Origin: Halichondria panicea
Taxonomy: Eukaryota
Direction: 5' to 3'
Assembly (NCBI RefSeq): GCF_963675165.1
Contig: NC_087392.1
Location: 14,022 to 78,021, forward strand
DNA length: 64,000 nucleotides
A program made the translations under genes and the position numbers. Positions 22,081-62,816 of this stretch are shown here, one piece after another. Positions within the stretch are counted from its first letter, which is position 1; each line of letters opens with the position of its first letter. Below the pieces are notes generated by a model, which made no database searches, had not been told where the DNA came from, and saw only the letters and a list, made by a program, of their open reading frames with translations.

Positions 22081-22611
22081 ACTCTGACTCTTTAGAAACT
22101 ATAGCCACAGAATAGCCACAGGTGTTAGTTTATTTTTTAGTTTTTATAATTATTAGACAGTTGAGTTGACCAAAAAACAATTTTTACAATGATAAGTACC
22201 AGGGTACCTAGTTATGTATACAAGCAGGAGTGCACTCCTGATACAAGTGATGGGTTGGTTAATCATTATATCAATAAAGGTGTGAGGGTGATAGTTGGGA
22301 GCTAGCTTGTCGTGCAAAGTTCTGCTCATTTCTTTGCCTTGCTAGTTTCCTTGCCTGTGCCTCTGTGTGGCTAATAGAGTGAGAGCTCCTGGTACCATAG
22401 TAACTACCAAGCTTCTTGAGGGAACTATACTTGCTCACATTATCAGCAATCTGCATAAGCAAATACATGCATTATAATAATACCCCACTCTAAGAAAGGC
22501 CAACTACACAACATAAAGGCCAGGTCCCAAATGAATATGAAGCAACCAAGGCCAGCTCTGTGTATAAGAGCCAACACTCTGTATTATACTGAGGGGTTCC
22601 ACTGTACATGA

Positions 22612-24701
22612 TTATACCTCTTTCTCCACGGGATTGCTCATTCTGCTGCCATGTATGTCCAGTACAGTGAGTGTTGTATTGCTCTGACAGAGGACCTCAC
22701 ACAGTCTAGTCCCACCCTCATCTCCAAATGGATTGTCTCCAATTAGCAGCATATCGAGACCAGAGTTGACTGCCAGGCACTCTGCAAGTGCTGCCACTGC
22801 ATTGTCTCCCAACAGGTTGCTAGAGAGTAGTACTTTACGCAGCGATTGATTGTGTCTCAACATGTCAGCAATGCTCTTGCCTCCATCATCAGCTAAAGAG
22901 AAGGGAGTAGTGAGTCTGTCATAGCACTACCAAACACCTACTAAATGCAACTTTTAAATTTAAAATCGGACGTTCTTAGTAGTACAAGTACAACCCTCAA
23001 AGGCCTGATTCTAAAATACCCACATATAATTATAGACCAGGCTCTTCAATTGCTGATTCAATGCTATCAAACAGCTACTAGTTAGGGCACCTATTTGGTT
23101 TCCTCCTAATCCGAGGGATCGCAGAGTGGTGTTCAACTTGAGTGCTGCTGCTAGATGTCCCGCCCCCTCATCTCGTATCTCATTACCCCCCAAACCAATA
23201 GACTGCAGACTGCACACGTTGTCTGAGAGTGGAGATATTGTAATCTCTATATCTAATGTTTGTATGAACTATAATTATTATACTCATGCTGCTATAACTT
23301 CGTAAGCTCAGAATAGTGACGTAGAATCTTATTCCACAGTTTTAATTTTTCAGATTAGCTAATGCTCTAAAATGAATGCCCTGGATTAATCCGCTATACA
23401 GTACCTTGCAATAGAGTGGCTAGATGCAGTGCCCCCTTGTCCCCCAGCTCATTGCCCCCCAGACCCATCCACAGGAGACTGTTGTTGTCCTGTAGACTCT
23501 GGGAGAGAGCCCAAGCACCTTCTGCTCCAATGTGGTTACTACCCAGTCCAATCCACAGCAGTGTCTTGTTGCCCTACACACACACAACAATATTTAGACT
23601 ATAGAATAACAACATTCACAATATGGGATTGTTAGCATTCTGTTGGAGCTAGTAACGTGAACAGTGGACACAATTCCTCCCACCAAACTATACTTGTTGT
23701 ATACCCAAACACACACACACACACAGTAGTAATTGCACACACCATCAGTGTAACTGACACACTGACATGGCTCCTTGTAAATGTGTAGCGGACATTGTTA
23801 CCTGCAGCCCCTCTGCCAAGCGTTGTGCTCCTTGTCCTGAGATATCATTCTGCCAGAGAGACAATCCCTCCAGTTTAAAGTTGAGTTTGAGAGATCCTCC
23901 CAAATACTGAGCACTCACATCTGTCAGACTGTTGGTCCCCACTTCTAGAGTCACTAGTGTTCTGTTCCTACACAGAGCTGTAGAGTGGGTGAGTGTGAGA
24001 AGTGGAGTGGGCGGGAATGATAGCTCTTACCAGTGGCCAAAGCCTCAAGTCCTCTGTCTCCAATATCACAGTTATTGAGGGCAAGATGTTGTAGTACTTT
24101 GTTAGTCTCTAGTACAGCAGCTAGACTCTCTGCACCCTCAGGGCCAATCTGTGCAGCAAGTGAGTGGGTGTATGACTGGGAAAGGGGAAGGGCTGACTGA
24201 CTGACTGACTGTACCTGCTCATTGTCTGATAGGTTGAGTTTGGTGATGTTGCAAGTGAGGAAAGAGTTGCACAGTGTGTCTGATATGTGCTGAACACTCA
24301 CAGGGCCCACACCACAGCCTACCACACTCAGCTCCTCTACAACACTGCACAGGGTGGAAATAAGGTGATAGGCTTTAAAGTAAACACATCTCCCTGGAGA
24401 CACAGTATATTTTACATAAACAACTGAGTAGACATGGCAATAATCCTGTACATTAGAGGCCTACCTAGAGTCTATAGTGAGGTAGCTAGAGCCTTTAGTG
24501 AGGCAGCTAGAGCCGTTAGTGAGGCAGCTAGAGCCTATAGAGCCAGGTACCTGTTCCTTCTGAGAGCTTCAGAGAGCTTCCTAATAGACTTGTCTGATAC
24601 TTGCAAGCCCTCCACTTTGACCTCAGTAGTTCCACTACCATTCTCCTTAATATCCCTGCGCAGATGACTCAGTTTAGAGGCGTCCTGGCCCATGGCTGCA
24701 G
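22612..24701 (-). CDS. leucine-rich-repeat protein of ribonuclease-inhibitor / NLRC3-like type, multi-exon, with N-myristoylation-type N-terminus
   Basis: N-terminal exon MGQDASKLSHLRRDIKENGSGTTEVKVEGLQVSDKSIRKLSEALRRN|gtacct (start 24701). Downstream exons carry consecutive ~28-aa RNI-type LRRs (LNLSDNEQ..GAESLAAVLETNKVLQHLALNNCDIGDRGLEALA; SLWQNDISGQGAQRLAEGLQ; LGLGGNQIGA..; SIGLGGNEIRDEGAGHLAAALKLNTTL; LLIGDNPFGDEGGTRLCEVLCQSNTTLTVLDIHGSRMSN), ending ..PVEKEV* at ~22612. No NACHT/NB-ARC exon was found in the window. Confidence 0.65.
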
Positions 24702-24825
24702 CCTGGAATAGTGATCAGTGTGTTGTGTGTATCTTGTTGCTTGAGACTTGAGGACCTCCCACTAATAATAATCATATTCATATCATACCGATGGTCTAGG
24801 TCGGCGGGGGGGGGTGTGTCGACAC

Positions 24826-25895
24826 AGCATGGCAGAGCTAGAGGACAAAGAACAACTGAGTGACTCTCAGCTGTGTGAGGAGCTGGCAAGGCTGGGTAGT
24901 CAGTCTGGTCCCATCACTGACACAACACGGCTAGTATACCAGCGACACTTGCGGAGGCTGTACTCTGGAGAGCACCCAGCAGCCAAAGGTATTTTTATCA
25001 AGGAGTTTGTATATTTACGAATCTCTTGCCTATGAGTTATAGTTATTGACTGGTTGACTATAGTAAATGGCTTATAACAACCAATGCTGAGGGATCATAT
25101 TCAGTGCTAGGACACAGTGAATCAGTGAATCATATTATGCTGTTATTGTCCACGTACGTACAGAGCCCTTGTCTGGTGAGGCTGCCTGCAATGTCAGTGG
25201 AGCCAGTGACTCAGGTGAGATCACATGTCATACCACAGCAATGTCTTCCGATTTCAAATCTAAAACTTGTAGTGCTACAATAATTATGATGTGCATAGTT
25301 CAGCGATACAATTCCGGCCCAATATAATTATGTTAAGAATCAGGCCTGTTTTCAGAGCTAACTTTGAGAGGCCATAACTTGTGCTAGGAACATCAGATTT
25401 CAAATCTAAAAGTTGCATGTAGTAGCTGCTGTAGGGGACCAGCTTGTACCATAGCATCTTGTGTTCCCTTTAGGTAAGGATGTATTCATCAGCTATGGGC
25501 GAGGGACAGTGGTCGGTCTGGAGGAGCTCAAGAGTCACCTAGAGAGTGCTGGCTATACTGTGTGGCTGGACTGCCTGGATATGAGTGGTGGGAGTGACTG
25601 GCATACTGTCATTGGTGAGGCAGTCAGGAACTGTCGTTGTCTAGTAGCCCTCATCAGCACCAAGTACACTACCTCGAAGCACTGCAAGAATGAACTGTTC
25701 ATGGCCAACTCACTGGGCAAAGCTCTAATCCCTGTAGTGCTGGAGACAGTGGAGGACCCAGGAGTACAGTTTGCCATTTCTTCTCTTAATTGGATACTAG
25801 CCACTGATGGATTTAGACCGAAGACAATCGCTCAACAATTAATACAGGGACTGCAAACATTAGGCATTAGTCCTCGCCACATCATCTTTCCGTGA
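24826..25895 (+). CDS. LEM-domain exon spliced in frame to TIR-domain exon (putative LEM–TIR protein)
   Basis: Exon 24826-24989 encodes MAELEDKEQLSDSQLCEELARLGSQSGPITDTTRLVYQRHLRRLYSGEHPAAK(g), which matches the LEM consensus LSDxELRxEL..G..PGPIT.TTR..Y.KKL, and ends at gtattt in phase 1. Exon 25474-25895 follows a ccctttag acceptor in the matching phase: GKDVFISYGRGTVVGLEELKSHLESAGYTVWLDCLDM..CRCLVALISTKYTTSKHCKNELFMANSLGKALIPVVLE.. (TIR with a conserved glutamate in the CKNELF context). A possible small intervening exon lies at ~25153-25205. Confidence 0.55.
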
Positions 25896-26989
25896 TTTCT
25901 TGTGTGCAGTACAACATTTGTTATGACATTCAATGAACTTTGTTTACATGGTAAAACCACTTTGAAGTTTACATGTCCAGTTTTCCTCTGATATAACGCA
26001 ACAAAAAGAATTGAATAAACAGTTGTTTCTTTGATGACCCTTTACCACACAAGCTCGCCAACAGAATTTGTTTCTTTGATGACCTTTTACCAGACAAGCT
26101 TATCACCATATGGAGACGGCTGGTGAGGAAAAGCGTTCACTTGTCCTTCCCTCTAGCAGCTTCCACAAGGCTGGATGTCGGGTGGATACTCACCCAAAAG
26201 GCCAGCAGCAATGGATCATGAGGCAAAAAGCATCGCAGCGAGTACAAGTGAGTGGCTAGTCATGATCAAAAGTGGACCACCTAGTATAGTGTATAGGCTG
26301 CTTTAGATGGCTGGCATTCTAATAGATATCATTACTAGTGATCAAACTATACAGCCTCTGTATAAAATGCATACATTGCTACACATTTGTTGACCCGTTA
26401 CTTCATTGCGTACAGTGATGGAGAGCACGAGAGGGGCGGAGTCAGTGACAAGTTGCTATGACAACAGATGATGATGGAATTACAAGGTGACACTGTGGAA
26501 TTTGCGTACAACCCATTGGACGTCTTTCACTGCAGATAGAGGAACACAATTAAGAAATAGTGAGTACTGCCGCGTGCAGAGTGTGACTCTTTCCCCCACC
26601 AGAACTGTGATCTGAGCATGTCATGTGATAGGCCTTGTCTAGAGCTACAGAATGCATCTCTTAGTTTTGATATTGATCGATTTTTCATAAAGTTATGACC
26701 TCCAGAAATCAGCTGGCCGAACTGCATCAACAGGTGATGGATGAGTTACAATTGACACTGGTGGGAGATGGGGACGACCCATTGGACGTCTTCATGGCTG
26801 CCTGGTGTACAGGTGTGATAAGTGGACGTCTTGGTGTACAGGTGTGATAAGTGGGTCTGTAATTATTCTTGTCCATACAGACTGAAGTGGATGGACCAAT
26901 AGCCATCTAGATGTCAGTGACTCAGGTGCATGGCGTACCATTAGCAATGTGTAATACTGTGTTCACTTCAGGCATGCAAGAATCTACTG

Positions 26990-27130
26990 TTGATGACCAA
27001 CTCACTGGGCAAAGCTCTAATCCCTGTACTGTACTGCTGGAGACAGTGGAGGACCAGGAGTACACATTGTGGATACGTACTAGCCACTGATATATGGCTC
27101 ACACCAACATTTAATTACAGAGACTGTAAA
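26990..27130 (+). pseudogene. decayed partial copy of the TIR exon (corresponds to 25685-25870)
   Basis: tgatgaccaactcactgggcaaagctctaatccctgtactgtactgctggagacagtggaggaccaggagtacac.. matches the TIR exon (..ELFMANSLGKALIPVVLETVEDPGVQ..) at ~90% with frame-breaking indels, and the matching tail tagccactgat..ttaat(t)acag(a/g)gactg(t/c)aaa(c/t)attag follows. The rest of the TIR domain is absent. Confidence 0.5.
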
Positions 27131-27302
27131 TTAACATTAGCTAGGCTCACAGTAACCTTGTTGAATAATTATATCATCCCGTCATAATAATTATTTCAGC
27201 TTTGACTGTATTATTATCATAATTATGATGAATAATTTACACAAATTTGCAGTCAACATTTTGTACAAACAGCAATTGAGACAGACAACACACAAACAAG
27301 TG

Positions 27303-29700
27303 TCAGTCAGTTATATCTGCGTCCCTTCTTGGCCCAGCACTCTGGTTGAATAGTGAGGGCATCCACTGACACAGACAACGCTCTAGTGGGCACTTCTCTG
27401 AACTCCTTACGACCAGAGTTGTATCTAATGAGGGCAAAGGGCAAAGGTGGATACACAAGCAGTCAATACACACTCGTAGCTTACTTGTAGACATGAGCCA
27501 CCATGGCTGACTTGATGACCTTTGGACCATTCCCAAACAACTTGACCACCTGAAGAACGGTATGGAAATAATAGCCCATGCTTTTTCTTCGGAAATGGAT
27601 TAGAAAGCAATCACTAAACAATTAATTTTTTTTATTCTGACTTAAGAAATGAGGGCTCACAGTAGCAGGCCCATTACTGACGCACGCACACACACACCAT
27701 ACCTGGTCAGAGTCTGGTAAATAGGAATAGAGACCTCTGAACTTGAATCCAATGATATCTCTGAAGAGTACCATGACATGACTAGCAGAGCAGCTCTCCA
27801 ACTCCTACATGACACAAGTGAACACACACAGTGTGTAAGGTAAGCACTTACTGCCAGAGCTCTCTGCTTGGCTGACACATTAGGCTCCCCTGCTAGACAC
27901 ACATATGATATTGCATTCTTGATGAGCTTCTTGTTGGATTTAGCACGAGGGGCAATATATAGGTCAGGTCCAGTGTGTGTGATGATGTCCCCACCAGTGT
28001 GTCTCCGCTCCACAGTGGCCACACGTCGCACACGCTCACGCTCATATAGTCGAGCACGTACATCAGCCTCTCGTTGTTGCCGCAGTAACTCGTCGTTACC
28101 CTGGTAACCAACACATATAGTAGAAGACACAGTACACACATCAACACACAACCTTTGCAGTTCCTTGTGTCCATGGGTTGTCCTCGGGAGCGACTACAGG
28201 ACTGGGGTTGCTGGTTCCTTGTATGGGAGAGAAGGGGAACTTGCCGAGTGATGTGCCACTATCTTCCTTGAAAAGTGCTGAACAAATTAGTTTCCTTCTA
28301 TTCTCTCTAGCAAGATTATCTCTCCCTTTGATTCTCTCATACACTGCTAGCAATTGTTGCAGCTTCTCTGATGGCTCTGGAGTAGAGAGAGTAGAGGCCA
28401 TGGCAGGTGGGTATATTGAGAGATGGATGTGTCTAGATTCCTCTTCACCACTCTCTGGATGATCATTCAATGGAGGTTCAATGACTGTGAGGCCAGCAGC
28501 AAGGGCAGTCTGATGTGTAGACACTGTGAAGCTTCTGCGTAGCTCCTCTAAAGGAGGTGCTGAAGTTTTGAGTCGTGTGATTGAGAGGCGAGGTTGTAGG
28601 AATGTTTGTGGGGGGAGAGCATCAGCCGAGATGAGGTCATGACTGGACATAGATCCCCTCAGTGGGGCCTTAAACACAGTCACCGCTTGTGGGGGGAGAG
28701 CATCAGCCGAGATGAGGTCATGACTGGACATAGATCCCCTCAGTGGGGCCTTAAACACAGTACGTCTACTAAGAGAGATATCGGAGGTAGACTGGAGGGT
28801 TGTCCTGCTGTAGTGTTTGTTCTCTAGACAGTGGTATAGGTGTGCCACAAGGGCAGTAGTGTTAGTACTCAAGTGAGTTGTGGGTGATCGATGCAGTTCC
28901 TCTGGTAGAATGTGGAACCCTGGTCGATCCAAATGATGGTTGAGGAATGAAACAGCTTTTGTCAGATTATCCAATGCTTGTTGAGGCGAGAGTGATTTGC
29001 CAAGGTGGAAATCTGGGGAGAAGGTGTTCATGACATGTGATATAAGGACAGTTTACCTGACACTGTGAAGAGCTTGGGTGTGTAGTGCAGTAGTAAAGCA
29101 GGCAGGCACTGGCCAGCATGCAGAGCGTCTGTGAGAGTAGAGGCTGGTGTTCTCACTAGAGGCATCTTATTGAGCCAGAGTAATAGACCCTCTGAGACAG
29201 TACAGGGAAGGTCCTTGGAGGCGACTAGTTTACCCACACGTCTGTAATCAGAGACTAGATACTCAGTTAGTTAGAGGATGGGTTCTTACCGGATAGTCCT
29301 CACGATAGCTGGTAGGGTAGCTATGGACCTAGTATAGAGTGTCATGAGCCCCTCCATCACTGCCAAGTGGCTGGCCTGTATTGCAAGCATAGCTAATAAG
29401 AGTACACACATAGGTCCAGGTAGACACACTTGTCTGATTGGTGCTGTCTGCTCAAGGGATGAGCTGTTAACCTCCTCTGTCATGAACACGCCATGACGTG
29501 CAAGCTTATGCACTAGAGCAGAGAAGTCACTTAATGGTCTTTCCTTTGGCAGTATCCTCGTCAGTAGGGAGCAGTAGATCCCTGGATGAGTGAGTGCCTT
29601 CACCACTCTCCTACAAAGGCATCCCTCTGATGTCAGTGGATCCACCAATAGGCTGATAGCAGGATGATTTGATGGCAACATGCTGGCAACCCAGCGTAGG
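27303..29700 (-). CDS. CAMSAP-family microtubule minus-end binding protein (CH domain ... CKK domain), compact multi-exon gene; 5' end may extend to ~30000
   Basis: The N-terminal CH-domain region (29286-29681 and 29028-29237) reads LVHKLARHGVFMTEEV..PIRQVCLPGPMCVLLLAMLAIQASHLAVMEGLMTLY and DLPCTVSEGLLLWLNKMPLV..DALHAGQCLPALLLHYTPKLF, which resembles CAMSAP CH (..AMVFWINKVN.. DGAALLAVIHYYCP..). The C-terminal CKK-domain exons (27303-27900) read RAKSNKKLIKNAISYVCLAGEPNVSAKQ, then ..VKLFGNGPKVIKSAMVAHVYK, then RYNSGRKEFREVPTRALSVSVDALTIQPE..*. The central exon 28141-29031 is a long open S/T/P-rich linker. Confidence 0.65.
28605..28759 (-). repeat. perfect 81-bp in-frame tandem duplication inside the CAMSAP linker exon (27-aa duplication VFKAPLRGSMSSHDLISADALPPQ..)
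   Basis: Two identical 81-bp blocks sit at ~28605-28678 and ~28686-28759, and the reading frame is preserved. Confidence 0.85.
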
Positions 29701-30056
29701 GAGACACACAGGCCATTCTACAGCGGGGAAGACACTTTATATACACACCATTACATCAATATACACACCATTCTCGCATCACAGCAGCTTGCCTAGCTTC
29801 CAGCTTTATCTGAGTCATATTAATTCTATATAAAGAGCACCAAAATCGCCATAGAAACTTGATATGACCTTTGACCTCTGTCAGACTATTTTTTCTTTGG
29901 GAGAGTGATGATTCTTACCGTATTAATATTAATTTGGGTAAAGTATAGTCACTCTCCAAAAGCAAAACAGGGCCTAAAACTGCGCATGTGCATTGGATAC
30001 AGCTACTAATCCTGTGCAGCATAGCCACATAGATAGTACTATTTCACTCCAGCACA

Positions 30057-30809
30057 ATGGAAGAGCTGGCTATGCGACTAGAATCAGAGAACAAGGCTCT
30101 CAAGAGAGAGATTGCTGAGTTAAAGAACTCCTGTGTGCACCGCAGCGAGCTGGATGAATTGAAACAAGATCTGGATCGACTCAAGAAATCCTCTCCTGAT
30201 AGTTTTGGATGTTCTCCTGGTATCTACTCACGAGTCAAGACAGTCAAGAAAGGTCGTCCCCAGTCACTACACGAGGTAACACAAGCAATGCAGGACCAGC
30301 TAGCCAAACCTCCACTCATCAGAGAATGCTCTTGTGGTTCACTACCTCCCTTCTATTTCACTGTGGAGAACTATGCTCATCATAAGAAACATTCTCTCAA
30401 ATGGTACAGTTCACCATTCTATAGTTGTCCAGGAGGGTATAAGATGTGTGTGGGAGTTAGTGCTGGTGGCTGTGGTGTGGGAGAAGGCACTCATGTCTCT
30501 GTACTCGTTCACTTCTTAAGAGGAGAGTTTGACACTTCTCTACAGTGGCCATTTCGAGGGACATTGGCCATTCACTTGCTCAATGAACGGCGAGACGGAT
30601 CTCATCATTGCCATGAGGTGGTGTTTGGTAAAGATGTGCCTGTGATGCAGTCTGGATGTGTGAGCGGAGGCTTTGAGAAGACCCTGGGTTATGGACTACC
30701 ATTGTTCATTGATCATGCTCAGTTGTCCTATAACCCGACACTGGATTGTGAGTATCTCAAGCATGACAGACTACGCTTTGTATTAGATATTGTGAAACTT
30801 GACAGTTAA
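30057..30809 (+). CDS. TRAF-like protein: coiled coil + MATH (TRAF-C) domain, single exon, no RING/zinc fingers in this ORF
   Basis: 250-aa ORF. The N-terminal heptad region reads MEELAMRLESENKALKREIAELKNS..ELDELKQDLDRLKK. The MATH domain reads FYFTVENYAHHKKHSLKWYSSPFYSCPGGYKMCVGVSAGGCGVGEGTHVSVLVHFLRGEFDTSLQWPFRGTLAIHLLNERRDGSHH..FVLDIVKL and matches the TRAF-C pattern ..S.PFYT...GYK.C.R.YLNGDG.GKGTH.SLFF..M.GE.D..L.WPF..KVTL.L.DQ. Confidence 0.75.
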   Translation: MEELAMRLESENKALKREIAELKNSCVHRSELDELKQDLDRLKKSSPDSFGCSPGIYSRVKTVKKGRPQSLHEVTQAMQDQLAKPPLIRECSCGSLPPFYFTVENYAHHKKHSLKWYSSPFYSCPGGYKMCVGVSAGGCGVGEGTHVSVLVHFLRGEFDTSLQWPFRGTLAIHLLNERRDGSHHCHEVVFGKDVPVMQSGCVSGGFEKTLGYGLPLFIDHAQLSYNPTLDCEYLKHDRLRFVLDIVKLDS

Positions 30810-43745: not shown

Positions 43746-46319
43746 TCACCATTGAGATACAGACACACTTATATATTCACCATAGGTGGATGAATTGCGC
43801 TGGTGAATGAGATGGATCCCTCCATTAGAGCAGATGCTATCTTGTCTTGGTCTACGATCATTCTCACTGCTCTGATACTCCTTCTTCATCTGGGAGAACA
43901 GGAAATACACCTTGGGGGCAAACAGACAGCACAGGGTGGTGGTGGCGCTCAGAGCTATCCCTAGGACAAGAGAACTTGTCTGAAAGATTGTACCTAGCTG
44001 CGAGGTGGCAAAATATGTAGGGATAAATGCCAGCCAGATAATGACAATGGTGTACAATGTGAGATTGATGAATTTGGCCTCATTGAAATTCTGAGGAACC
44101 TTGCGAGCTCGAAATGCAAAATATGTACTCAACAACAACAGAAATAGACTGTAACCAAATGATGCTGATATTCCAATATAGGGAGACTCGCCACATTTCA
44201 GCTCTGTACTGAAATCATTGTAGACCAATAGAATGCTTGGCGGTTCCACTACCAACCAGATCACAGCAATGACTACCTGTACAGCAATGAGCAGTAGTGT
44301 TAGTGCCACCTGGCTCTGTGGACTAATGAGGGAGGGGGTGCTAACTGAACCAGGTCTACGGTTGAATATACGATGAATACGATTAGTCTTAATCAACAGT
44401 GCACTATAGCAAAGAGTGAAACAGAAACCAAGCCCAAACCTTCGAATACCACACACAACAGCAGAGGGTCGAATAATGAAAGCAAAGGGAAGCAAATAAC
44501 ACAACAATAACCCAGTCAACAGGAAAGCACTCAACTCGCGACTAGAGCCCTTGACAATCTGATGCTTGTAGAACACAACAAAGATGATAATAACACTCAC
44601 TGTTAGTGCAATCCCAACAATAGCAACAACCATGATGATAATAGACCATGCATGAGACCATGTCAGGAAGGTGAGGGGTATGAGCTCACACTGGGTCATG
44701 TTCGTATTAGGGGCATAACCTTGTTCACATTCTCTACACTTCTCGCCAGTACTCACGTGCCTGTTGCCAAGACAACGCTTACAGATCCAACAACAAGCAG
44801 CTTGATCTGATACCCTCTCTGGATACTGCCCGCCCCCACACTTGACACTACACACTGACTCTGGCATGTCTCCATCAATCCACTCCACATCACTGTGTAG
44901 AGACAGCATTGCATTAGAGGCAGTCCACACACCCACCTGTCTGAACCTATGCTGCCCACTCTCCAACTGAAGGTTCTTAATGATGAAGCTGCCTTGTTCA
45001 TCTCCACTGGCATCAAATGAAATCTCTCGTGCAGAAGCTCCTGGTGAGAATGAAACATTGTGTAAATACGTTTGTAATAGTTCTCCATTCACTGCATTAG
45101 TCCGAGGGTCAGTCATATCACGACATAAACCATGGCCACCGGGACACAAGGCTCTCTGCATGTCAGTCATAGCATGGGCAAAAGCATACACAGCATCAAT
45201 AGCAAAGGGAACTTTACTGTTCTGACGATATTCATTGTTGACTGAGATCCTGTCATTGCCATCACACTCCCTCACACCTGCCACTGGTTGAAATGAGCAG
45301 TTGAACACATTCTCCCAATATTCGCTAAACCACGGATTGTCAGCATTGTTGAGAGGGGTCAGTCCAGTGAAGTAATCATCAAACTGTTGGCTGTGTTTGG
45401 CCTGAGGGAGAACAGCTAACATACCATGCGCCACAGGGTACAAGTGGGAGGGGATCTGGTCCCCCCAAGCATCACTGGCTATCCACGTTATGTTCTTGAG
45501 AGGTCCACTTCCTCTGCTCCTGTCTACAGCCTCCAGCACTTTCACAGCAGTGGCTAATTGTCCAAACAACACAGCCACAGATGCATTATTGACCCAGCTG
45601 CGTGACATGTCCAGCAACACCTCATCCAAGTCTTGACTAGTGGCCACCACTGGGACACTGATTTGAGTGGCTACACATGTCTCTGAACAGTTTCTACCCT
45701 CCAACGCTTTGAGCAATGCCTGAATTCCCACTGTACCATATACATCATCAGAGTGGAGGGCATACACATAGCTCCAGTTGAAGTGGTCAATCAGATCAGC
45801 CATGACTTGCGTCTGAAGAGAGTCAGGAGGTATCGTACGAAAGAAATAATCGAATCTAGTTCTGTCACTCAAAGTTTCTGCGGTGGAGGCATAACTGATT
45901 TGAGGGATCTTGAATAATCTGAGCAAACTAGCCACAGCAATAGAGACACTGCTTGAGGCTGCACCCACAACACCAGATATACCCAACACGCCGCGAGAGC
46001 TCACAAAGTGCAGGCTTTGTTCGAGGGCATAGTTAGACTGTGTGCAAGTGTCTCTAATCTCAAAGCTGAGTGTTATGCCAGGGAGAAGGGCTGTGTTGTT
46101 GTTGACCTTATCCACTGCTAATACCATTGCTTCAAGTCGTTGCAGTCCAAGGTCCAACACGTCACCACATTGGTTGTCCATGTTCTTGTGTACAGGGAAT
46201 AGAGCTCCTAAGATGACAATGTCTCCATGAGTAGGTAATGGTCCATTATAGACAGTGGCCCCAGCTAGGCACACAACACACACTAGTAACAAGGCAATCA
46301 TGATAGCTACTCTCCGCAT
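43746..46319 (-). CDS. class C (mGluR/CaSR-like) GPCR: signal peptide, Venus-flytrap ANF-receptor domain, cysteine-rich domain, 7TM; single exon
   Basis: 857-aa uninterrupted ORF. N-terminal signal MRRVAIMIALLLVCVVCLAGA. The VFT region reads ..GDIVILGALFPVH..SYASTAETLSDRTRFDYFFRTIPPDS... The cysteine-rich region reads CSVKCGGGQYPERVSDQAACCWICKRCLGNRHVSTGEKCRECEQGYAPNTNMTQCELIP. Seven hydrophobic segments follow, and the TM3 ..FGLGFCFTLCYSALLIKTNRIHRIF.. carries the class-C K/R-I-x-R-I-F signature. Confidence 0.85.
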   Translation of the reverse strand: MRRVAIMIALLLVCVVCLAGATVYNGPLPTHGDIVILGALFPVHKNMDNQCGDVLDLGLQRLEAMVLAVDKVNNNTALLPGITLSFEIRDTCTQSNYALEQSLHFVSSRGVLGISGVVGAASSSVSIAVASLLRLFKIPQISYASTAETLSDRTRFDYFFRTIPPDSLQTQVMADLIDHFNWSYVYALHSDDVYGTVGIQALLKALEGRNCSETCVATQISVPVVATSQDLDEVLLDMSRSWVNNASVAVLFGQLATAVKVLEAVDRSRGSGPLKNITWIASDAWGDQIPSHLYPVAHGMLAVLPQAKHSQQFDDYFTGLTPLNNADNPWFSEYWENVFNCSFQPVAGVRECDGNDRISVNNEYRQNSKVPFAIDAVYAFAHAMTDMQRALCPGGHGLCRDMTDPRTNAVNGELLQTYLHNVSFSPGASAREISFDASGDEQGSFIIKNLQLESGQHRFRQVGVWTASNAMLSLHSDVEWIDGDMPESVCSVKCGGGQYPERVSDQAACCWICKRCLGNRHVSTGEKCRECEQGYAPNTNMTQCELIPLTFLTWSHAWSIIIMVVAIVGIALTVSVIIIFVVFYKHQIVKGSSRELSAFLLTGLLLCYLLPFAFIIRPSAVVCGIRRFGLGFCFTLCYSALLIKTNRIHRIFNRRPGSVSTPSLISPQSQVALTLLLIAVQVVIAVIWLVVEPPSILLVYNDFSTELKCGESPYIGISASFGYSLFLLLLSTYFAFRARKVPQNFNEAKFINLTLYTIVIIWLAFIPTYFATSQLGTIFQTSSLVLGIALSATTTLCCLFAPKVYFLFSQMKKEYQSSENDRRPRQDSICSNGGIHLIHQRNSSTYGEYISVSVSQW

Positions 46320-46946
46320 GCAGCCCTACACTATGTGGGGGTCATGCATCCCTATACACTATGTTCAGGGGGGTCTATTATAGGATGCAATATCACACCT
46401 GCATATCACACTAACTATCAGCTATGGCTGACACCACACGGTGCTAATAATAGGAATCCAATCACAGGTAACCATGACCACTATATACCATTAAAAAAAT
46501 TTTGCTTATAATTATTATCATTCCTATTATTCTCCATTGAAAAGCCAACATAACCATGAACCATAAACAGATCTAAATGACATTGCAGCCATATAACTGA
46601 AACTAAACAACTGACTTACATCAGAATAATGATATTATTGACCTCTATATGACCTTTTAAACCTCTGACTCTACCTATTTTTTCAGCCTCACCTATTATT
46701 CTCAAAATTATTCTAGAATAATTGGGACAGCCCTAAGTAGTACAGGCCAGAGTAGGCACAATGCTCAGCCCTAAGTAGTACAGGCCAGAGTAGGCACAAT
46801 GCTCATGCAATACCACAACTATGTGTACTGTACATATATATATATACGTCGTCATGTATGTATCTTATGGAATGTTAACAATCAATTATTATTGTAAAAT
46901 TATTTTGCACAAAGGTGTAAATGGGATGAGTGCTATACGCTGATAA

Positions 46947-55167: not shown

Positions 55168-56688
55168 CTAAAGTGGTTCTAGATTGATCTTGATACCATT
55201 CTTGCTTCGTAACACAACTTTAGGGGCTGTCTCAACTTTGTGTCCTTGTACTAGCGATAACTTGAATCTGTTTAGAATGGAGGCAATCACAATCCTCTCT
55301 TCATTCAGAGCAAAGTTCTGTCCAATGCAGTTTCGCTGACCACCAGAAAATGGAATGTAGGCATAGGGGTCACGACCCTCGCAGTTGCTGGGATGGAAAC
55401 GAAGAGGGTCATATTCATCAGGATTCTCCCAAGTTTCCGGGTGGCGATGGATCTGTCGTATACCAATGCCAAAGTTCATCCCCTTGGGAATGATATGGCC
55501 GTCCAGTATCATTTCCTCCGTTGCTTTTCTGAATATAAAGAAGACAGGAGGGTAGAGTCTCATGGCCTCCTTGATGGCCCACTGAGTGTACTTGAGCTCT
55601 TTAAGATCATCATAGTCAAGGGTGTCTCGTCCCTGAAGCACACTCCTCACCTCCTCACGTACTTTCTCCTGGGCCTCAGGATGCTTTGCTAGACAGTACA
55701 GGGTCCAGCACATCCCACTGGTCGTCGTGTCATGGCCCTCAAACATGAATGTGTCCACTTCATCTTGAATCTCTTGATCGGTGAGGCCATTGCCATCCTC
55801 GTCTCTAGCTATGAGCAGAACGTCCAGGAAATCCAGGTACTTCCCCTTCTTTCTAGTCCGCAGCTCACTCTCTGAGAAGCCAGTTTTGCCCACTTCCAAC
55901 TCTTCCTTTCTCTTTTGTACAACCATTCTCGAGTGACTGTGCACAAACTGACAAAGTTTGTTGTACTTGCGTCCAGTGGGTGTCAAGTTGAATAGCCAGT
56001 CAATTCTGCCAACCAAAGTAACGAATCTCTCTGTGGTCAGTTCTACTAGCTCTTGAACCGCCTCAATATATGGATGGCTTTGTGTAGTGTCTTGACAATT
56101 GCTGGAGAAACTGAAAGAGCACTGAAGGATGATATCCAGTGAGAGCAAACTAATGCTATTAAAAAGTTCAATTTGTTTATTTTTATCCATCAATGCTGTC
56201 CACTTGTCAAGTAATTCCTTAACACAATTGTTGTACACAGGCACATAAGGCTTGAGGATTTCGTAGTGAAAAGCTGGAGTTAGCAAACGACGATTTCTGG
56301 CCCATTTTGATCCTTTGGATATAAGAAGTCCATCGCCAAGCCAAGGTTTGAACAAACGATACTCGGCAGCGTTCTTAGGTTGCTTGAGCACCTTCCCTGC
56401 AAGACTGCAATGATAAATGTCGATGGACGGTTGGAATGGACCGATCCATGTTCTAACCATTTTCCAGCGCTTTTCTTTCACGGCATATTTCATAACTTTG
56501 TGATATTCCTCTTCAGATTCCAACATCTTTCGTACGTCAAGTAAGTTTCCAAACAGCCAATGTGCTGGAAGTCCTGGGATGTTTCTAACTGCCTTCCAAT
56601 GAACATAGTATCGAAACAGACGACCTGGAACATTGAAGATGAACAATCCGACCAGTAAGAGTGCAGAAATCACAAGCAAAGGCTCCAT
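55168..56688 (-). CDS. cytochrome P450, CYP4-clan, single exon (copy A, 506 aa)
   Basis: N-terminal membrane anchor MEPLLVISALLLVGLFIF; I-helix EGHDTTTSGM; ExxR EAMRLYPPV; PERF-like DPLRFHP; heme-binding FSGGQRNCIGQNFA. The CYP4-type motif EVDTFMFEGHDTT is present. Confidence 0.9.
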   Translation of the reverse strand: MEPLLVISALLLVGLFIFNVPGRLFRYYVHWKAVRNIPGLPAHWLFGNLLDVRKMLESEEEYHKVMKYAVKEKRWKMVRTWIGPFQPSIDIYHCSLAGKVLKQPKNAAEYRLFKPWLGDGLLISKGSKWARNRRLLTPAFHYEILKPYVPVYNNCVKELLDKWTALMDKNKQIELFNSISLLSLDIILQCSFSFSSNCQDTTQSHPYIEAVQELVELTTERFVTLVGRIDWLFNLTPTGRKYNKLCQFVHSHSRMVVQKRKEELEVGKTGFSESELRTRKKGKYLDFLDVLLIARDEDGNGLTDQEIQDEVDTFMFEGHDTTTSGMCWTLYCLAKHPEAQEKVREEVRSVLQGRDTLDYDDLKELKYTQWAIKEAMRLYPPVFFIFRKATEEMILDGHIIPKGMNFGIGIRQIHRHPETWENPDEYDPLRFHPSNCEGRDPYAYIPFSGGQRNCIGQNFALNEERIVIASILNRFKLSLVQGHKVETAPKVVLRSKNGIKINLEPL

Positions 56689-56865
56689 GTTTTAGCTCAG
56701 CTATAATTAATTATTATTTTGCCATTCAGCAGCCCCTCCCCTTTAGGCTTACCTTAGGGGAGGACTACTACTACTGCAATTTATAAGAATAAGAATCAAA
56801 TTTTCAGTGTTCCAACAAAAATATAATATAAACTCTAGAGCTAGAAGAATGGAATACATCACACA

Positions 56866-58401
56866 TTACAATGCAGACTCAATGTTCACTAAAATATCAT
56901 TCTTGCTTCGTAACACAACTTTAGGAACAGTCTCAACTTTGTGTCCTTGTACTAGCGATAACTTGAATCTATTTACAATGGAGGCAGTCACAATCCTCTC
57001 TTCATTCAGAGCAAAGTTCTGTCCAATGCAGTTTCGCTGACCACCAGAGAATGGAATGTAGGCATAGGGGTCACGACCCTCGCAGTTGCTGGGATGGAAA
57101 CGAAGAGGGTCATACTCATCAGGATTATCCCAAGTGTCCGGGTGGCGATGGATCTGTCGTATGGACAGGCCAACAGTCATACCTTTAGGAATCTCGTGGC
57201 CATCCAGAACAAGGTTTCCATCAGATTGGCGGAATATAAAGAAGACAGGAGGGTAGAGTCTCATGGCCTCCTTGATGGCCCACTGAGTGTACTTGAGCTC
57301 TTTAAGATCATCATAGTCGAGGGTGTCTCGTCCCTGAAGCACACTCCTCACCTCCTCACGCACTTTCTCCTGTGCCTCAGGATGCTTTGCTAGACAGTAC
57401 AGGGTCCAGCACATTCCACTGGTCGTCGTGTCATGGCCTTCAAACATGAACGTGTCTACTTCATCTCTAATCTCGAGGTCAGTCAGTCCCTCTCCAGTCT
57501 CATCTTCAGCAGTGAGTAGAATGTCGAGAAAATCTAAATGTCTCTTTTGTCGTGTTTTAGCTAACAGTTCTTCTCGTTTCAACACTTTCTCTCCTGAATC
57601 AAGGCCCAGAAACTCCTTTCTTTCCTTTATAACCCCCTCAGAGTATTGATGAGCTTTGTTGCAGGCATCACGGAATTGTCTCCCCTCAGACGTGAGGTAG
57701 TACAGTATATCAATCCTCTTGAGTGGTGATGTGAATCGTGTTGCAGTCAGTTCAACAAGGTCTTGTACTGTTCTAATGTACGGGTGAGCAGTGGTGGCAG
57801 TTTGACAGTTACTCTGAAAGCTAAACGCACATTGCATTATCACGTCCAGTGAGAGCAGCCCGATTGAATCGAAGAGCTTCACCGACTGACCACCTTCAGC
57901 CGGTGAAACACTCCACTTGTCCAATAGTACCTCTGTACAGTCGTTGTAGATACCCACATAGCCTTTGAGGATATCGTAATGGAAAGCTGGAGTGAGGAGG
58001 CGACGATTCCTGAACCATTTGCTCCCTCCAGAGATGAGAAGTCCATCCCCTAGCCATGGCTTGATGAGACCATACACCTCACTATCCTTGGAGGCCTTGA
58101 GCACAGGACCGACAAGAGAGCAATGCTGAATAGCAACCATCGGAAAGAATGGGCCCAGCCAACTCCTAGTCAACTTGTGCTTGTTCTGAAATATGAAGTT
58201 AGTCCATTTCTTGGTAGTTTCTTCATCCAGATTGATTTGATGTAGGTTTCCCCATAGCCAGTGTGTTGGCCATCCAGGCAGCGCCCTCACTGCATTGCAC
58301 TGTATGTAATAGCCATAGAGCGCTGGTGGGAGCTTTAGAAGGAGCACTGCAATCACGAGAGTGGCTGCAGCTACACACAACAGGGACACAACATACTCCA
58401 T
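56866..58401 (-). CDS. cytochrome P450, CYP4-clan, single exon (copy B, 511 aa), tandem paralogue of copy A
   Basis: Same motif set as copy A. The C-terminal ~190 codons are ~97-98% identical at the DNA level to copy A (e.g. 56891-57150 vs 55201-55460), whereas the N-terminal halves are strongly diverged. Only ~177 bp separate the copy B stop from the copy A start. Confidence 0.9.
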   Translation of the reverse strand: MEYVVSLLCVAAATLVIAVLLLKLPPALYGYYIQCNAVRALPGWPTHWLWGNLHQINLDEETTKKWTNFIFQNKHKLTRSWLGPFFPMVAIQHCSLVGPVLKASKDSEVYGLIKPWLGDGLLISGGSKWFRNRRLLTPAFHYDILKGYVGIYNDCTEVLLDKWSVSPAEGGQSVKLFDSIGLLSLDVIMQCAFSFQSNCQTATTAHPYIRTVQDLVELTATRFTSPLKRIDILYYLTSEGRQFRDACNKAHQYSEGVIKERKEFLGLDSGEKVLKREELLAKTRQKRHLDFLDILLTAEDETGEGLTDLEIRDEVDTFMFEGHDTTTSGMCWTLYCLAKHPEAQEKVREEVRSVLQGRDTLDYDDLKELKYTQWAIKEAMRLYPPVFFIFRQSDGNLVLDGHEIPKGMTVGLSIRQIHRHPDTWDNPDEYDPLRFHPSNCEGRDPYAYIPFSGGQRNCIGQNFALNEERIVTASIVNRFKLSLVQGHKVETVPKVVLRSKNDILVNIESAL

Positions 58402-58603
58402 ACTTTACTGAACTTTCAGCTAGCTTGTAATTTATATGTTTACCTTGATGTCACATGACCACAAAGTACATGCAACTTGAGCACCCACCCACGCAATTGC
58501 CAATTGGTTGTTTTTTGACATTGCAGAATAATTATTAAAATCACCAGGCAACACAGCACTAGATTCTACACATAAAATACTACACAAACACAAATATCGA
58601 CAC

Positions 58604-62119: not shown

Positions 62120-62816
62120 CTCTGTGTGTTCAGATCAGACTAGTTATAAGCAGTACCTCGTACACCAGCGGAGCCCTGGATGTGCACTTCTTTAGCATCC
62201 GCACGTACTTAACTTATGAAGTAGCTAGTTTCTGTTTACCTTGTTATCACGTGTGTGTGTGTGCGTGTGTAAATATTAGATCTCTGATTAGATCTTTATC
62301 CCTTGGTCGCGTGTGATCAAACTATTGAGCTCTGACAGACAAGGTTCAGGTTCAATTCCTGCAAGGGACATGGTACTCTTTTTTTTCCAATAACTTTTTT
62401 GGTCAAAATAACAATAGGAAAACAAAATAATGATACACTAATAAGTTCTACTAATAAGTTCTACTATATGTATAACTATAAGTACTAATAAGTTCAAATT
62501 CTCTCTGCCCTATTGCGACCTTTAGACCTTGACTGCACGGCCGGCCCATGACATTGCTCATGTGATCACCTGCAGGCTAAGCAGGAACAATACAATAATA
62601 GCACAATAGAGAGCGACTACTACCCTGGCCAATCACATGGCAGGCTAGTAGCAACAGCTGTTGCCGTATTTGCTAGTTAGAATCATATGATTTTACTTTT
62701 AAACAAACTTGTCACGATTAACATTATTCATAAGTCAGCACATGACCCACATTCACCCCACACAGCACATATAAACCCCATGCAGCTTGGGTCCCATTAC
62801 ACCACCCATTGACAAC

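What the first reader, a model, noticed from the sequence alone, without database searches (positions are those of the whole stretch)
22612..30809. Neighbourhood of innate-immunity-type genes: RNI/NLRC3-like LRR gene, LEM–TIR gene, TIR-exon pseudocopy, MATH-only TRAF-like gene
Three genes of the kinds that expand in invertebrate immune repertoires lie within 8 kb (LRR 22612-24701, TIR 24826-25895, TRAF-MATH 30057-30809). A decayed duplicate of part of the TIR exon sits at 26990-27130, and short repeated exon-like pieces lie at 26400-26800, both signs of local duplication turnover. The only other gene among them is the cytoskeletal CAMSAP gene. The LRR protein has an MGxxxS N-terminus (myristoylation consensus) and no NACHT exon in the window. 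The TRAF-like ORF has a coiled coil plus MATH domain but no RING or zinc fingers and is intronless. The cluster may reflect a co-regulated or rapidly evolving locus.
Basis: inference. Interest (0 to 1): 0.55.

Follow-up and report, generated by a model that had tools for sequence, protein, structure and literature searches.

The report
Sponge LEM–TIR gene and conserved neighbours
The three "immune-type" genes are real, but they are old, single-copy, slowly evolving genes of the sponge Halichondria panicea that conserved gene order happens to place together; the one unusual item is a small protein joining a chromatin-tethering LEM domain to a SARM1-like TIR domain.

Summary
The window comes from the demosponge Halichondria panicea. 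All the features described are present.

- **LRR gene:** it has 8 exons and encodes 440 aa. It is not NLR-like. It belongs to an N-myristoylation-motif LRR family with full-length orthologues (39-42% identity) in choanoflagellates.
- **LEM–TIR gene:** 210 aa, identical to RefSeq XP_064404432.1. Its TIR is closest to SARM1 and keeps the catalytic Glu. Orthologues in two other sponges are LEM–TIR–SAM, so the H. panicea gene is a SAM-less derivative.
- **LRR/LEM–TIR pair:** the two genes sit head to head in six sponge species. A 10-nt motif is conserved in the shared promoter region.
- **MATH-only gene:** RefSeq calls it "TRAF5-like". It is a conserved intronless sponge gene paired head to head with CAMSAP, not with the TIR gene.
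- **Origin of the neighbourhood:** in another sponge a MutS gene lies between the two pairs. The 8-kb neighbourhood therefore reflects conserved microsynteny plus a lineage-specific loss.
- **Selection:** dN/dS is 0.07-0.22 and the gene order is single-copy in a relative, which argues against a fast-evolving cluster.
- **Turnover:** only the TIR exon shows it (a decayed copy here, a deletion allele in a close relative).

The proposed mechanism is inferred, not shown: LEM/BAF-tethered clustering of a TIR NADase.

The parts
22271..24693 (-). Stand-alone RNI-type LRR gene: 8 coding exons, 440 aa, N-terminus MGQDASK (N-myristoylation consensus). Exons: 24551-24693, 24215-24344, 24031-24148, 23802-23977, 23405-23573, 23091-23222, 22618-22892, 22271-22450.
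   Evidence: The exons were spliced by hand and checked by script. Pfam finds LRR_6. Full-length orthologues exist in choanoflagellates, 41-45% by BLASTP and 39-42% in the joint alignment, which is colinear. There is no NACHT domain. The nearest solved structures are generic RNI-like LRRs: NOD2, LRRC34, RNH1 and ciliary LRR proteins.
24694..24828 (.). 135-nt region shared by the divergent LRR and LEM-TIR start codons (putative bidirectional promoter). It contains the conserved motif GACCTCCCAC at 24753-24762 (+), followed by ATTCAT.
   Evidence: RACCTCCYAC occurs once in the 64-kb window. It occurs once in each locus carrying this gene pair, in six species, always in this intergenic region and in the same orientation relative to LEM-TIR. 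L022 and L023 were fetched after the motif was defined.
24829..25895 (+). LEM-TIR gene: 3 exons (24829-24988 LEM; 25164-25214 linker; 25474-25895 TIR), 210 aa, soluble. The candidate catalytic Glu is E144, in the motif CKNEL.
   Evidence: Pfam finds LEM and TIR_2. The product is identical to RefSeq XP_064404432.1. SARM1 TIR is the best solved match and its catalytic Glu position aligns with E144. Foldseek's top hits are SARM1 and other TIRs. A profile of the LEM exons hits the BAF-binding LEM domains of LAP2 and emerin. No hydrophobic segment suggests a membrane span.
26146..26708 (.). Non-coding stretch "X". In a close relative the homologous sequence lies upstream of the TIR exon; here it lies downstream of the working TIR exon and upstream of the decayed copy.
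   Evidence: blastn gives 77-86% identity to L006 675-1184 and L007 718-1233. No protein similarity was found.
26462..26854 (.). Local repeats: 26462-26526 and 26728-26792 (about 79% identical), plus a perfect 23-nt repeat spaced 29 nt apart at 26803-26854.
   Evidence: the repeat finder families D3 and D5; self-hits through L001. The close relative has a single copy of this sequence.
26915..27140 (+). Decayed, collapsed copy of the 3' part of the LEM-TIR gene: the end of exon 2 with its donor (26915-26950), the intron end with its acceptor (about 26936-26976), and the last two thirds of the TIR exon (26975-27140) with frame-breaking indels.
   Evidence: Its intron end (GTGTTCACTTCAGG) matches the acceptor of the TIR exon in the close relative better than it matches the working H. 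panicea copy. It lies about 170 nt from the 3' end of CAMSAP, the same spacing as the TIR exon in relatives.
27306..29717 (-). CAMSAP gene (CKK domain at the 3' end, CH domain at the 5' end), head to head with the MATH gene.
   Evidence: Pfam finds CAMSAP_CKK and CH_CAMSAP2_N. The CAMSAP<->MATH pairing is conserved in L005, L006, L010 and L024.
30057..30809 (+). Intronless MATH-only TRAF-like gene (250 aa): N-terminal helices 2-45, a disordered linker, and a MATH beta-sandwich at 99-248.
   Evidence: Pfam finds TRAF-mep_MATH and MATH_2. The best solved matches are the TRAF5, TRAF3 and TRAF4 MATH domains. There are 28 homologues at 41-100% identity, 26 of them covering at least 96% of the query, each a single ORF. 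RefSeq XP_064404438.1 is named "TNF receptor-associated factor 5-like". The AF2 model has pLDDT 85-95 in the MATH domain.

Best explanation
**What the region is.** This is an ordinary, conserved stretch of the Halichondria panicea genome. It holds two independent head-to-head gene pairs.

**Pair 1.** One gene encodes an ancient LRR protein with an N-myristoylation motif, shared with choanoflagellates. The other encodes a small soluble LEM-TIR protein.

**Pair 2.** CAMSAP sits opposite an intronless protein made of a coiled coil and a MATH domain. It resembles the C-terminal half of a TRAF.

**Why the pairs are adjacent.** In this lineage the MutS gene that separates them in another sponge, and the SAM-coding end of the TIR gene, are no longer there. 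All four genes are single-copy and under purifying selection. The only recent turnover is a partial duplication of the 3' part of the TIR gene, one copy of which has decayed.

**How the LEM-TIR protein most likely works (inferred, not shown).**
- The LEM domain docks on BAF, the metazoan DNA-bridging protein.
- Many LEM-TIR molecules are thereby concentrated on BAF-coated DNA or chromatin.
- Crowding lets the SARM1-like TIR domains self-associate, which is what switches on TIR NAD+-cleaving or signalling activity.
- In orthologues that keep the C-terminal SAM domain, SAM would add constitutive oligomerisation, as in SARM1.

**The other two proteins (inferred).** The MATH-only protein most likely acts as a RING-less TRAF adaptor or regulator that trimerises through its coiled coil. 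The LRR protein is most likely a membrane-anchored protein-binding scaffold expressed from the same promoter region as LEM-TIR.
For: **Organism and gene models.** RefSeq names and exact identity establish the species and two of the models.

**LRR family.** Orthologues come from Helgoeca, Savillea, Diaphanoeca, Barroeca and Hartaetosiga. BLASTP gives 36-43% identity over 91-100% of the length for the named choanoflagellate hits, and the joint alignment gives 39-42%. The C-terminal block LLGSxxG is conserved. MGxxxS/T starts the proteins of 5 of the 6 species named.

**LEM-TIR conservation.**
- The three-exon structure with phase 1/1 introns is kept in L005, L008 and L022. L012 and L023 have two exons.
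- Pfam finds LEM plus TIR_2 in all four spliced models scanned: L005, L012, L022 and L023.
- The motifs GPIT..TR and CKNEL are invariant in the four-species alignment.
- SARM1 is the best sequence match and the best fold match, and Glu144 aligns with the catalytic position.
- The LEM profile hits LAP2 and emerin LEM domains, including entries listed as emerin (2odc/2odg).

**SAM in orthologues.** The TIR exon continues into a tail whose profile hits only SAM domains, including SARM1's.

**Synteny.**. No MutS gene lies in the window.

**Selection.** dN/dS values are.

**Promoter motif.**

**Literature.**
- LEM domains bind BAF, a conserved metazoan dsDNA-binding protein (PMC3198171, PMC2173821).
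- LEM-3/ANKLE1 is a precedent for a LEM domain fused to an enzyme that acts on DNA (PMC3285610).
- The legend of Figure 1 in PMC8242945 lists LEM among the domains drawn for H. panicea receptor transcripts. This suggests the gene is transcribed.
Against: - No biochemical or expression data bear on the mechanism. BAF was not looked for in H. panicea.
- The AF2 model of the LEM part has low confidence (pLDDT 50-60).
- A conserved Glu is necessary for TIR NADase activity but does not prove it. Signalling-only TIRs also appear among the fold matches.
- The LRR/LEM-TIR adjacency is no better conserved than the adjacency of LRR to the unrelated aldo-keto reductase gene. Synteny alone therefore does not show a functional link.
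- The other loci come from unnamed sponge or metagenome assemblies, so the taxonomic depth is judged only from sequence identity.
- In L008 the LEM exon carries an in-frame TAA.
- The order of events that produced the decayed copy is not resolved. The relative's contig ends before any LEM exon.
Confidence: 0.6

Rival explanations
1. The three genes form one functional innate-immune module: an LRR sensor, a TIR effector and a TRAF-like adaptor. They are kept together by selection for co-regulation.
For: LRR and LEM-TIR share a promoter region of 135-363 nt with a conserved motif in six species. Two relatives carry a canonical kB site, GGGACTTTCC, in that region. In H. panicea and L005 all three genes lie within 8 kb. 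TRAF-annotated genes respond to LPS in H. panicea (PMC8242945), although this particular gene was not identified there.
Against: The MATH gene is paired with CAMSAP, not with the TIR gene. A MutS gene separates it from the TIR gene in ctg5891. L010 has CAMSAP-MATH with no LRR or TIR within the 20.8-kb locus fetched. L012 and L022 have LRR and LEM-TIR next to MutS. The LRR family predates animals. The H. panicea intergenic region has no kB consensus site.
Confidence: 0.12
2. LEM-TIR is a non-enzymatic adaptor or nuclear-envelope-associated scaffold. Its TIR mediates only TIR-TIR protein contacts, for example with sponge Ig-TIR receptors or MyD88. The conserved Glu would then be structural.
For: Fold matches include the signalling TIRs of Hydra TRR-2, IL-1RAcP, MyD88 and MAL, with scores close to those of the NADase TIRs. 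Identity to SARM1 TIR is only 21-27%.
Against: The best sequence and fold matches are SARM1. CKNEL is invariant in the four aligned species, and the Glu is kept in all six orthologues. Orthologues carry a SAM domain, as SARM1 does. The TIR is of the TIR_2 type.
Confidence: 0.2
3. The locus is a hotspot of duplication and decay, a birth-and-death immune locus. The present single-copy state is a snapshot.
For: There is a decayed partial TIR copy plus local repeats. A close relative carries an allele with a 19-nt frame-shifting deletion at the start of the TIR exon. Another assembly holds a partial second TIR copy, 94% identical in protein. The SAM domain has been lost at least twice.
Against: Turnover is confined to one exon of one gene. 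LRR, MATH and CAMSAP show none. The gene order is conserved and single-copy in L005. dN/dS is 0.07-0.22. No intact paralogue lies in the 64-kb window.
Confidence: 0.08

Closest known systems
SARM1 (ARM-SAM-SAM-TIR NAD+ hydrolase)
   Same: The TIR domain is the best sequence match (E 2e-4) and the best fold match. The catalytic Glu position is conserved, as are the DVFISY strand and the Asp/Gly of the loop after strand B. Orthologues in two sponges also carry a SAM domain whose profile hits SARM1's SAM.
   Different: There is no ARM domain. The domain order is LEM-TIR-SAM rather than SAM-TIR. The H. panicea protein has no SAM at all. A LEM domain is not found in SARM1. TIR identity is only about 21-27%. 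Enzymatic activity is untested.
ANKLE1 / C. elegans LEM-3 (LEM domain plus GIY-YIG nuclease)
   Same: A soluble protein in which a LEM domain is fused to an effector domain that acts at DNA or chromatin (PMC3285610). It is the nearest precedent for LEM acting as a delivery module for an enzyme.
   Different: The effector here is a TIR domain, not a nuclease, and there are no ankyrin repeats. BAF binding by the sponge LEM domain is inferred from sequence only.
TRAF family, especially the TRAF-N/TRAF-C half and RING-less TRAF1
   Same: The MATH domain is closest to those of TRAF5, TRAF3 and TRAF4. N-terminal helices precede it. RefSeq names the product TRAF5-like.
   Different: There is no RING and no TRAF zinc finger. 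The protein is only 250 aa and the gene is intronless. It forms a sponge-wide family of single-exon genes lying next to CAMSAP.
RNI-like LRR proteins (ribonuclease inhibitor, NLRC3/NOD2 LRR, LRRC34, DRC5)
   Same: The repeats are 28-29 residues long and of the LRR_6 type. PDB matches to NOD2, LRRC34 and RNH1 have E-values of 1e-27 to 1e-33.
   Different: It is a stand-alone protein with a myristoylation-type N-terminus and its own conserved C-terminal block. The identifiable orthologues are choanoflagellate proteins and unnamed transcript-length or sponge-associated contigs; the best hit from a named animal was 36% over 66% of the length. There is no NACHT domain.
TIR-STING fusion of oysters (recalled from memory, not checked here)
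   Same: An invertebrate protein that couples a TIR domain to a module of a DNA-sensing pathway.
   Different: The partner domain differs (STING rather than LEM), and the resemblance is conceptual only. No homology outside the TIR domain is claimed.

Membership tests
TIR domain superfamily (Pfam TIR_2 / TIR) | Sequence match above the curated threshold and a flavodoxin-like TIR fold | tested here: met
   TIR_2 scores 79.8 bits against a cut-off of 28, and TIR 30 bits against 21.3. The AF2 TIR region has pLDDT 70-93, and Foldseek gives probability 1.0 to many TIR structures.
SARM1-like / enzymatic TIR NADases | Catalytic glutamate at the position of SARM1 E642 | tested here: met
   E144 aligns with the Glu of SARM1's HKEI motif. 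It is invariant in the four aligned LEM-TIR orthologues and is also present in L022 and L023. That this SARM1 residue is E642 is from memory.
SARM1-like / enzymatic TIR NADases | NAD+ cleavage activity | not testable with these tools
   This needs a recombinant enzyme assay.
SARM1 orthologue | ARM-SAM-SAM-TIR domain architecture | tested here: not met
   The 210-aa window protein has no ARM and no SAM. The L022 and L023 orthologues have one C-terminal SAM but no ARM.
LEM-domain proteins | LEM motif above the Pfam threshold, of the BAF-binding type rather than the DNA-binding LEM-like type | tested here: met
   LEM scores 47.1 bits against a cut-off of 24. The profile's best PDB hits are the LAP2 LEM domain (1h9f, and 1gjj residues 112-149) and emerin LEM entries.
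LEM-domain proteins | Binding to BAF | not testable with these tools
   Inferred from homology only. The presence of BAF in H. panicea was not checked.
Inner-nuclear-membrane LEM proteins (emerin/MAN1/LEM2 type) | Transmembrane segment | tested here: not met
   The maximum Kyte-Doolittle mean over 19 residues is 1.38, and it falls inside a TIR strand.
NLR (NLRC3-like) | NACHT/NB-ARC nucleotide-binding domain joined to the LRRs | tested here: not met
   The gene starts 135 nt from the LEM-TIR start codon. The protein is colinear with choanoflagellate proteins of 439-461 aa. No NACHT appeared in the Pfam results for window ORFs, of which 25 of the 34 matched families were displayed.
N-myristoylated proteins | N-terminal Met-Gly-x-x-x-Ser/Thr | tested here: met
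   The H. panicea protein starts MGQDASK. Of the nine choanoflagellate-type orthologues with an intact N-terminus, eight start MGxxxS/T and one starts MGNQQAT. The sponge orthologues L005, L008, L012, L022 and L023 also keep the motif. Actual lipidation cannot be tested here.
TRAF family | C-terminal TRAF-C (MATH) domain preceded by a coiled coil | tested here: met
   Pfam finds TRAF-mep_MATH at 1e-20. PDB matches are the TRAF5, TRAF3 and TRAF4 MATH domains. The model has helices at 2-25 and 28-45. Trimerisation was not tested.
TRAF family | N-terminal RING and TRAF-type zinc fingers | tested here: not met
   Pfam finds neither. The CAMSAP 5' end lies about 340 nt upstream, leaving no room for further exons. 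The RefSeq product is the same 250 aa.
Tandemly expanded immune gene cluster | Several intact paralogues side by side, varying in number between relatives | tested here: not met
   There is one TIR, one MATH and one LRR gene in 64 kb, plus one decayed TIR fragment. The arrangement is single-copy in L005.

The most novel reading that the evidence does not exclude
LEM-TIR(-SAM) is a previously uncharacterised animal sensor-effector. BAF coats exposed or foreign DNA, such as viral DNA, ruptured nuclei or engulfed bacterial DNA. BAF then recruits and crowds LEM-TIR molecules, which switches on a SARM1-type NADase or nucleotide-signal synthase. The membrane-anchored LRR protein, expressed from the same bidirectional promoter and inherited from the unicellular ancestors of animals, would be its regulatory partner. 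This would be a DNA-triggered TIR pathway in the earliest animals, independent of cGAS-STING.
Probability: 0.1. Interest if true: 0.8.

Novelty: new variant of a known kind. Interest (0 to 1): 0.4.

Why it matters
As an "immune gene cluster" the finding is ordinary. It is conserved microsynteny of single-copy genes that RefSeq has already annotated.

What is worth keeping is the LEM-TIR(-SAM) family.

- **A new partner for a SARM1-like TIR.** TIR domains that cleave NAD+ are central to bacterial, plant and animal defence and to axon degeneration. They are switched on by forced oligomerisation.
- **A possible link to DNA surveillance.** A sponge family that pairs such a TIR with a BAF-binding LEM module, and ancestrally with a SAM domain, suggests a way of tying TIR activation to DNA or chromatin.
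- **Prior description.** I found no discussion of this in the searchable literature. The LEM+TIR combination seems only to have been drawn, without comment, in one H. panicea figure.
- **Directly testable.** A 210-aa soluble protein can be tested in vitro.

The LRR gene is also a clean example of a conserved protein with a myristoylation motif, for which the only named full-length orthologues found here are choanoflagellate.

Tried and rejected
1. **NACHT or death-fold exons near the LRR gene.** None appeared in the Pfam results for window ORFs, of which 25 of the 34 matched families were displayed.
2. **Repeated pieces at 26400-26850 as remnants of the SAM exon seen in orthologues.** tblastn with four SAM tails found nothing better than E=0.16 in any downstream region. 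Rejected.
3. **First look for LEM in the nearest TIR relatives.** Pfam on ORF-level proteins found none. This was misleading: the LEM exon is separate, and fetching the contigs showed it.
4. **Word-indexed protein search with LEM-TIR.** It gave only 5 hits. The metagenome scan added only two contigs of one assembly and some distant TIRs.
5. **Exact look-up of my LRR model and of a shorter variant.** Neither is in the collection. The model was validated against orthologues instead.
6. **MAFFT alignment of the intergenic regions.** It misaligned the motif, so I replaced it with a pattern search.
7. **Reading the motif as an NF-kB site.** It does not fit GGGRNWYYCC. True kB sites occur only in L012 and L022. 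It also resembles the GLI site GACCACCCA, but that is from memory and was not tested.
8. **Two dN/dS segments (LEM exon, CKK piece).** They were entered in the wrong frame and their values are discarded.
9. **L013-L015.** They hold an LRR orthologue with long introns, and the 5' exon lies outside the fetched locus, so adjacency could not be scored.
10. **Literature searches.** The "LEM domain" + "TIR domain" search returned two papers, on unrelated topics judging by their titles. The BAF + Amphimedon search found none.

Full report
**Source and gene content.** The window is eukaryotic, with short GT-AG introns and CA microsatellites. An exact-sequence look-up places it in the demosponge Halichondria panicea. 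The TIR ORF clusters with RefSeq XP_064404432.1, "uncharacterized protein LOC135349756". That 210-aa sequence is identical to the product I spliced by hand from 24829-24988, 25164-25214 and 25474-25895. The MATH ORF clusters with XP_064404438.1, "TNF receptor-associated factor 5-like", 250 aa. Among window ORFs, Pfam showed no other TIR or MATH gene and no NACHT or death-fold domain; LRR_6 matched only the two ORFs of this LRR gene. These results come from the ten longest ORFs and from the 25 families displayed out of 34 matched among the 116 ORFs of at least 88 aa. The rest of the window holds unrelated genes, including HgmA, prefoldin, aldo-keto reductase, a class-C GPCR, two P450s and a GH7 enzyme.

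**The LRR gene.** It has eight coding exons on the minus strand and encodes 440 aa. The last exon, 22271-22450, lies outside the reported interval. The protein is not NLR-related.
- Its best database matches are complete proteins of 439-461 aa that cover 88-100% of its length. BLASTP identity is 40-45%, and a joint alignment gives 39-42%.
- The named ones come from choanoflagellates: Helgoeca nana, Savillea parva, Diaphanoeca grandis, Barroeca monosierra, Hartaetosiga balthica and H. gracilis.
- The alignment is colinear from end to end. It includes a conserved C-terminal LLGSxxG block, which validates the extra exon.
- The sponge protein and eight of the nine choanoflagellate-type orthologues with an intact N-terminus begin Met-Gly-x-x-x-Ser/Thr, the N-myristoylation consensus. 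The ninth begins MGNQQAT.
- Matches to NOD2, LRRC34, ribonuclease inhibitor and ciliary LRR proteins reflect only the shared repeat type.
- Exon-level dN/dS against a relative is 0.07-0.14.

**The LEM-TIR gene.** The TIR domain is of the TIR_2 type.
- Its only solved-structure sequence matches are SARM1 TIR domains. The alignment puts Glu144 (motif CKNEL) on the Glu of SARM1's HKEI motif, which I recall as catalytic E642.
- An AlphaFold model built from a shallow alignment is confident only in the TIR part (pLDDT 70-93). It returns SARM1 as the top Foldseek hit, followed by plant, bacterial and animal TIRs.
- A profile of six sponge LEM exons hits the true LEM domain of LAP2 and the LEM domain of emerin. 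This is the BAF-binding kind, not the DNA-binding LEM-like kind (PMC3198171).
- The protein has no hydrophobic segment that could span a membrane.

**Orthologues of LEM-TIR.** I recovered orthologous loci from five other, unnamed sponge sources: L005, L008, L012, L022 and L023.
- In each, a LEM exon splices in frame (phase 1) to the TIR exon. Pfam finds LEM plus TIR_2 in the four spliced models scanned.
- GPIT..TR and CKNEL are invariant in the four-species alignment.
- In L022 and L023 the TIR exon runs on into a tail of about 70 aa. The profile of that tail matches only SAM domains, including SARM1's.
- The family is therefore LEM-TIR-SAM, and the H. panicea gene is a SAM-less form. L012 also lacks SAM, so the domain was lost at least twice.
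- A rough neighbour-joining tree interleaves forms with and without SAM.

**Prior description.** I found no paper that discusses a LEM+TIR protein. The legend of Figure 1 in Schmittmann et al. 2021 lists "LEM" among the domains drawn for H. panicea receptors. The combination was therefore probably seen in the transcriptome but never analysed.

**Gene order.** A relative with 68% TIR identity (L005) has exactly the same order: HgmA-prefoldin-AKR-LRR-LEM-TIR-CAMSAP-MATH-WD40, each gene once.
- LRR and LEM-TIR lie head to head, 135-363 nt apart, in all six species.
- The 10-mer RACCTCCYAC occurs once in the 64-kb window and once in each of those loci. It is always in this intergenic region and in the same orientation. 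That includes the two loci fetched after the motif was defined. It is usually followed by ATTCAY.
- CAMSAP and the MATH gene form a second head-to-head pair, conserved in L005, L006, L010 and L024.
- On one 54.5-kb contig the order is LRR, LEM-TIR-SAM, MutS, CAMSAP, MATH.
- L012 and L022 also have MutS after the TIR gene.
- L010 has CAMSAP-MATH with no LRR or TIR in the fetched locus.
- No MutS gene lies in the window.

The tight 8-kb neighbourhood therefore arose because MutS and the SAM-coding end are missing between two older pairs. The LRR/LEM-TIR adjacency is no more conserved than the LRR/AKR adjacency, so synteny alone does not prove a functional link.

**Rate of evolution.** Nei-Gojobori estimates against a close relative (dS 0.3-0.45) give the following dN/dS values:

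| Gene | dN/dS |
|---|---|
| TIR exon | 0.17-0.22 |
| MATH | 0.22 |
| CAMSAP | 0.33 |
| Neighbouring WD40 gene | 0.30 |

The MATH gene has 28 homologues at 41-100% identity, each a single ORF, and 26 of them cover at least 96% of its length. Its model shows two N-terminal helices, a disordered linker and a confident MATH sandwich. Nothing here indicates fast evolution.

**Turnover at the TIR exon.** The decayed copy is real.
- It is a collapsed copy of the end of exon 2, the intron ends and the last two thirds of the TIR exon.
- It sits about 170 nt from the 3' end of CAMSAP. That is where relatives have their TIR exon.
- Its acceptor region resembles the relative's acceptor more than it resembles the working H. 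panicea copy.
- The stretch at 26146-26708 lies upstream of the TIR exon in the relative, but downstream of the working exon here.
- The fragment is therefore probably the original exon, replaced by a duplicate nearer the LEM exon. The relative's contig ends too early to prove this.
- In the relative, one contig version has a 19-nt deletion that removes KDVFMSY and shifts the frame. Another version from the same sample is intact.
- Turnover exists, but it is confined to this one exon.

**Mechanism (inferred).**
- LEM-3/ANKLE1 shows that a LEM domain can deliver an enzyme to DNA (PMC3285610).
- From general knowledge, TIR NADases such as SARM1 are activated by self-association.
- The simplest reading is that BAF-coated DNA or chromatin concentrates LEM-TIR and so activates its TIR, with SAM adding oligomerisation in the ancestral form.
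- None of this was tested.
- The MATH-only protein most plausibly acts as a RING-less TRAF-like adaptor or regulator.
- The LRR protein is most plausibly a membrane-anchored scaffold.

**Verdict.** The interpretation as a co-regulated or rapidly evolving immune cluster is only partly supported. The region is conserved microsynteny of annotated genes. The LEM-TIR(-SAM) family is a new variant of SARM1-like TIR proteins and merits a biochemical test.

Noticed in passing
window 62775-63998 (+), runs off the window end: An intronless ORF encodes a glycoside hydrolase family 7 cellobiohydrolase (Pfam 2.7e-167). Its best solved match is the cellobiohydrolase 2xsp (1.3e-162), which I recall as fungal. 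From memory, the hit list also includes crustacean and Dictyostelium GH7 enzymes. A GH7 cellulase gene in a sponge genome is unusual and might be a horizontal acquisition.
   Followed up: partly
window 55171-56691 (-), 56869-58404 (-) and 43749-46325 (-): Two tandem cytochrome P450 ORFs of about 510 aa, apparently intronless, and an uninterrupted 859-aa class-C GPCR ORF (ANF_receptor + NCD3G + 7tm_3). The P450 pair, unlike the TIR/LRR/MATH genes, is a true tandem duplication.
   Followed up: no
window 28606-28761: A perfect 81-nt tandem duplication (27 aa, twice) lies inside the large CAMSAP exon. Both copies are also present in the close relative L006.
   Followed up: partly
L012 3600 and L022 5259 (LRR/LEM-TIR intergenic regions): The classical NF-kB site GGGACTTTCC (read as GGAAAGTCCC) sits 172 and 177 nt from the LRR start codon in these two sponges. 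It is absent from the same region in H. panicea, L005, L008 and L023.
   Followed up: partly
L008 (= L016, VSKX01091235.1), about 445-447: The LEM exon of this orthologue has an in-frame TAA at a conserved basic position, while the TIR exon is intact. This could be a pseudogene, a polymorphism or an assembly error. The same assembly has a partial second TIR copy, 94% identical in protein (L017).
   Followed up: partly
L006 about 1577-1600 and L007 about 1655-1680, compared with L009 52-75: Two contig versions of the close relative's TIR exon differ. One lacks 19 nt, which removes the KDVFMSY strand and shifts the frame. The other, from the same sample, is intact.
   Followed up: partly
window 24465-24540: A 21-nt unit repeated 3.6 times (CTAGAGCCTATAGTGAGGCAG) lies in intron 1 of the LRR gene.
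   Followed up: no
proteins P0133, P0136 and P0137: Close TIR relatives (49-52% identity over the matched stretch) carry a shared N-terminal region of about 200 aa with no Pfam match (LWPYMS..LQ.RLLG...HGKLSVKK) in place of LEM. P0133 also has a SAM domain. The same TIR module has therefore been combined with different front ends.
   Followed up: no
proteins P0121-P0125 and others: The highest-scoring hits to this TIR in the 1.8-billion-protein library are giant proteins with 5-7 tandem TIR_2 domains. P0121 also has WD40 repeats. Their source organisms are unknown.
   Followed up: no
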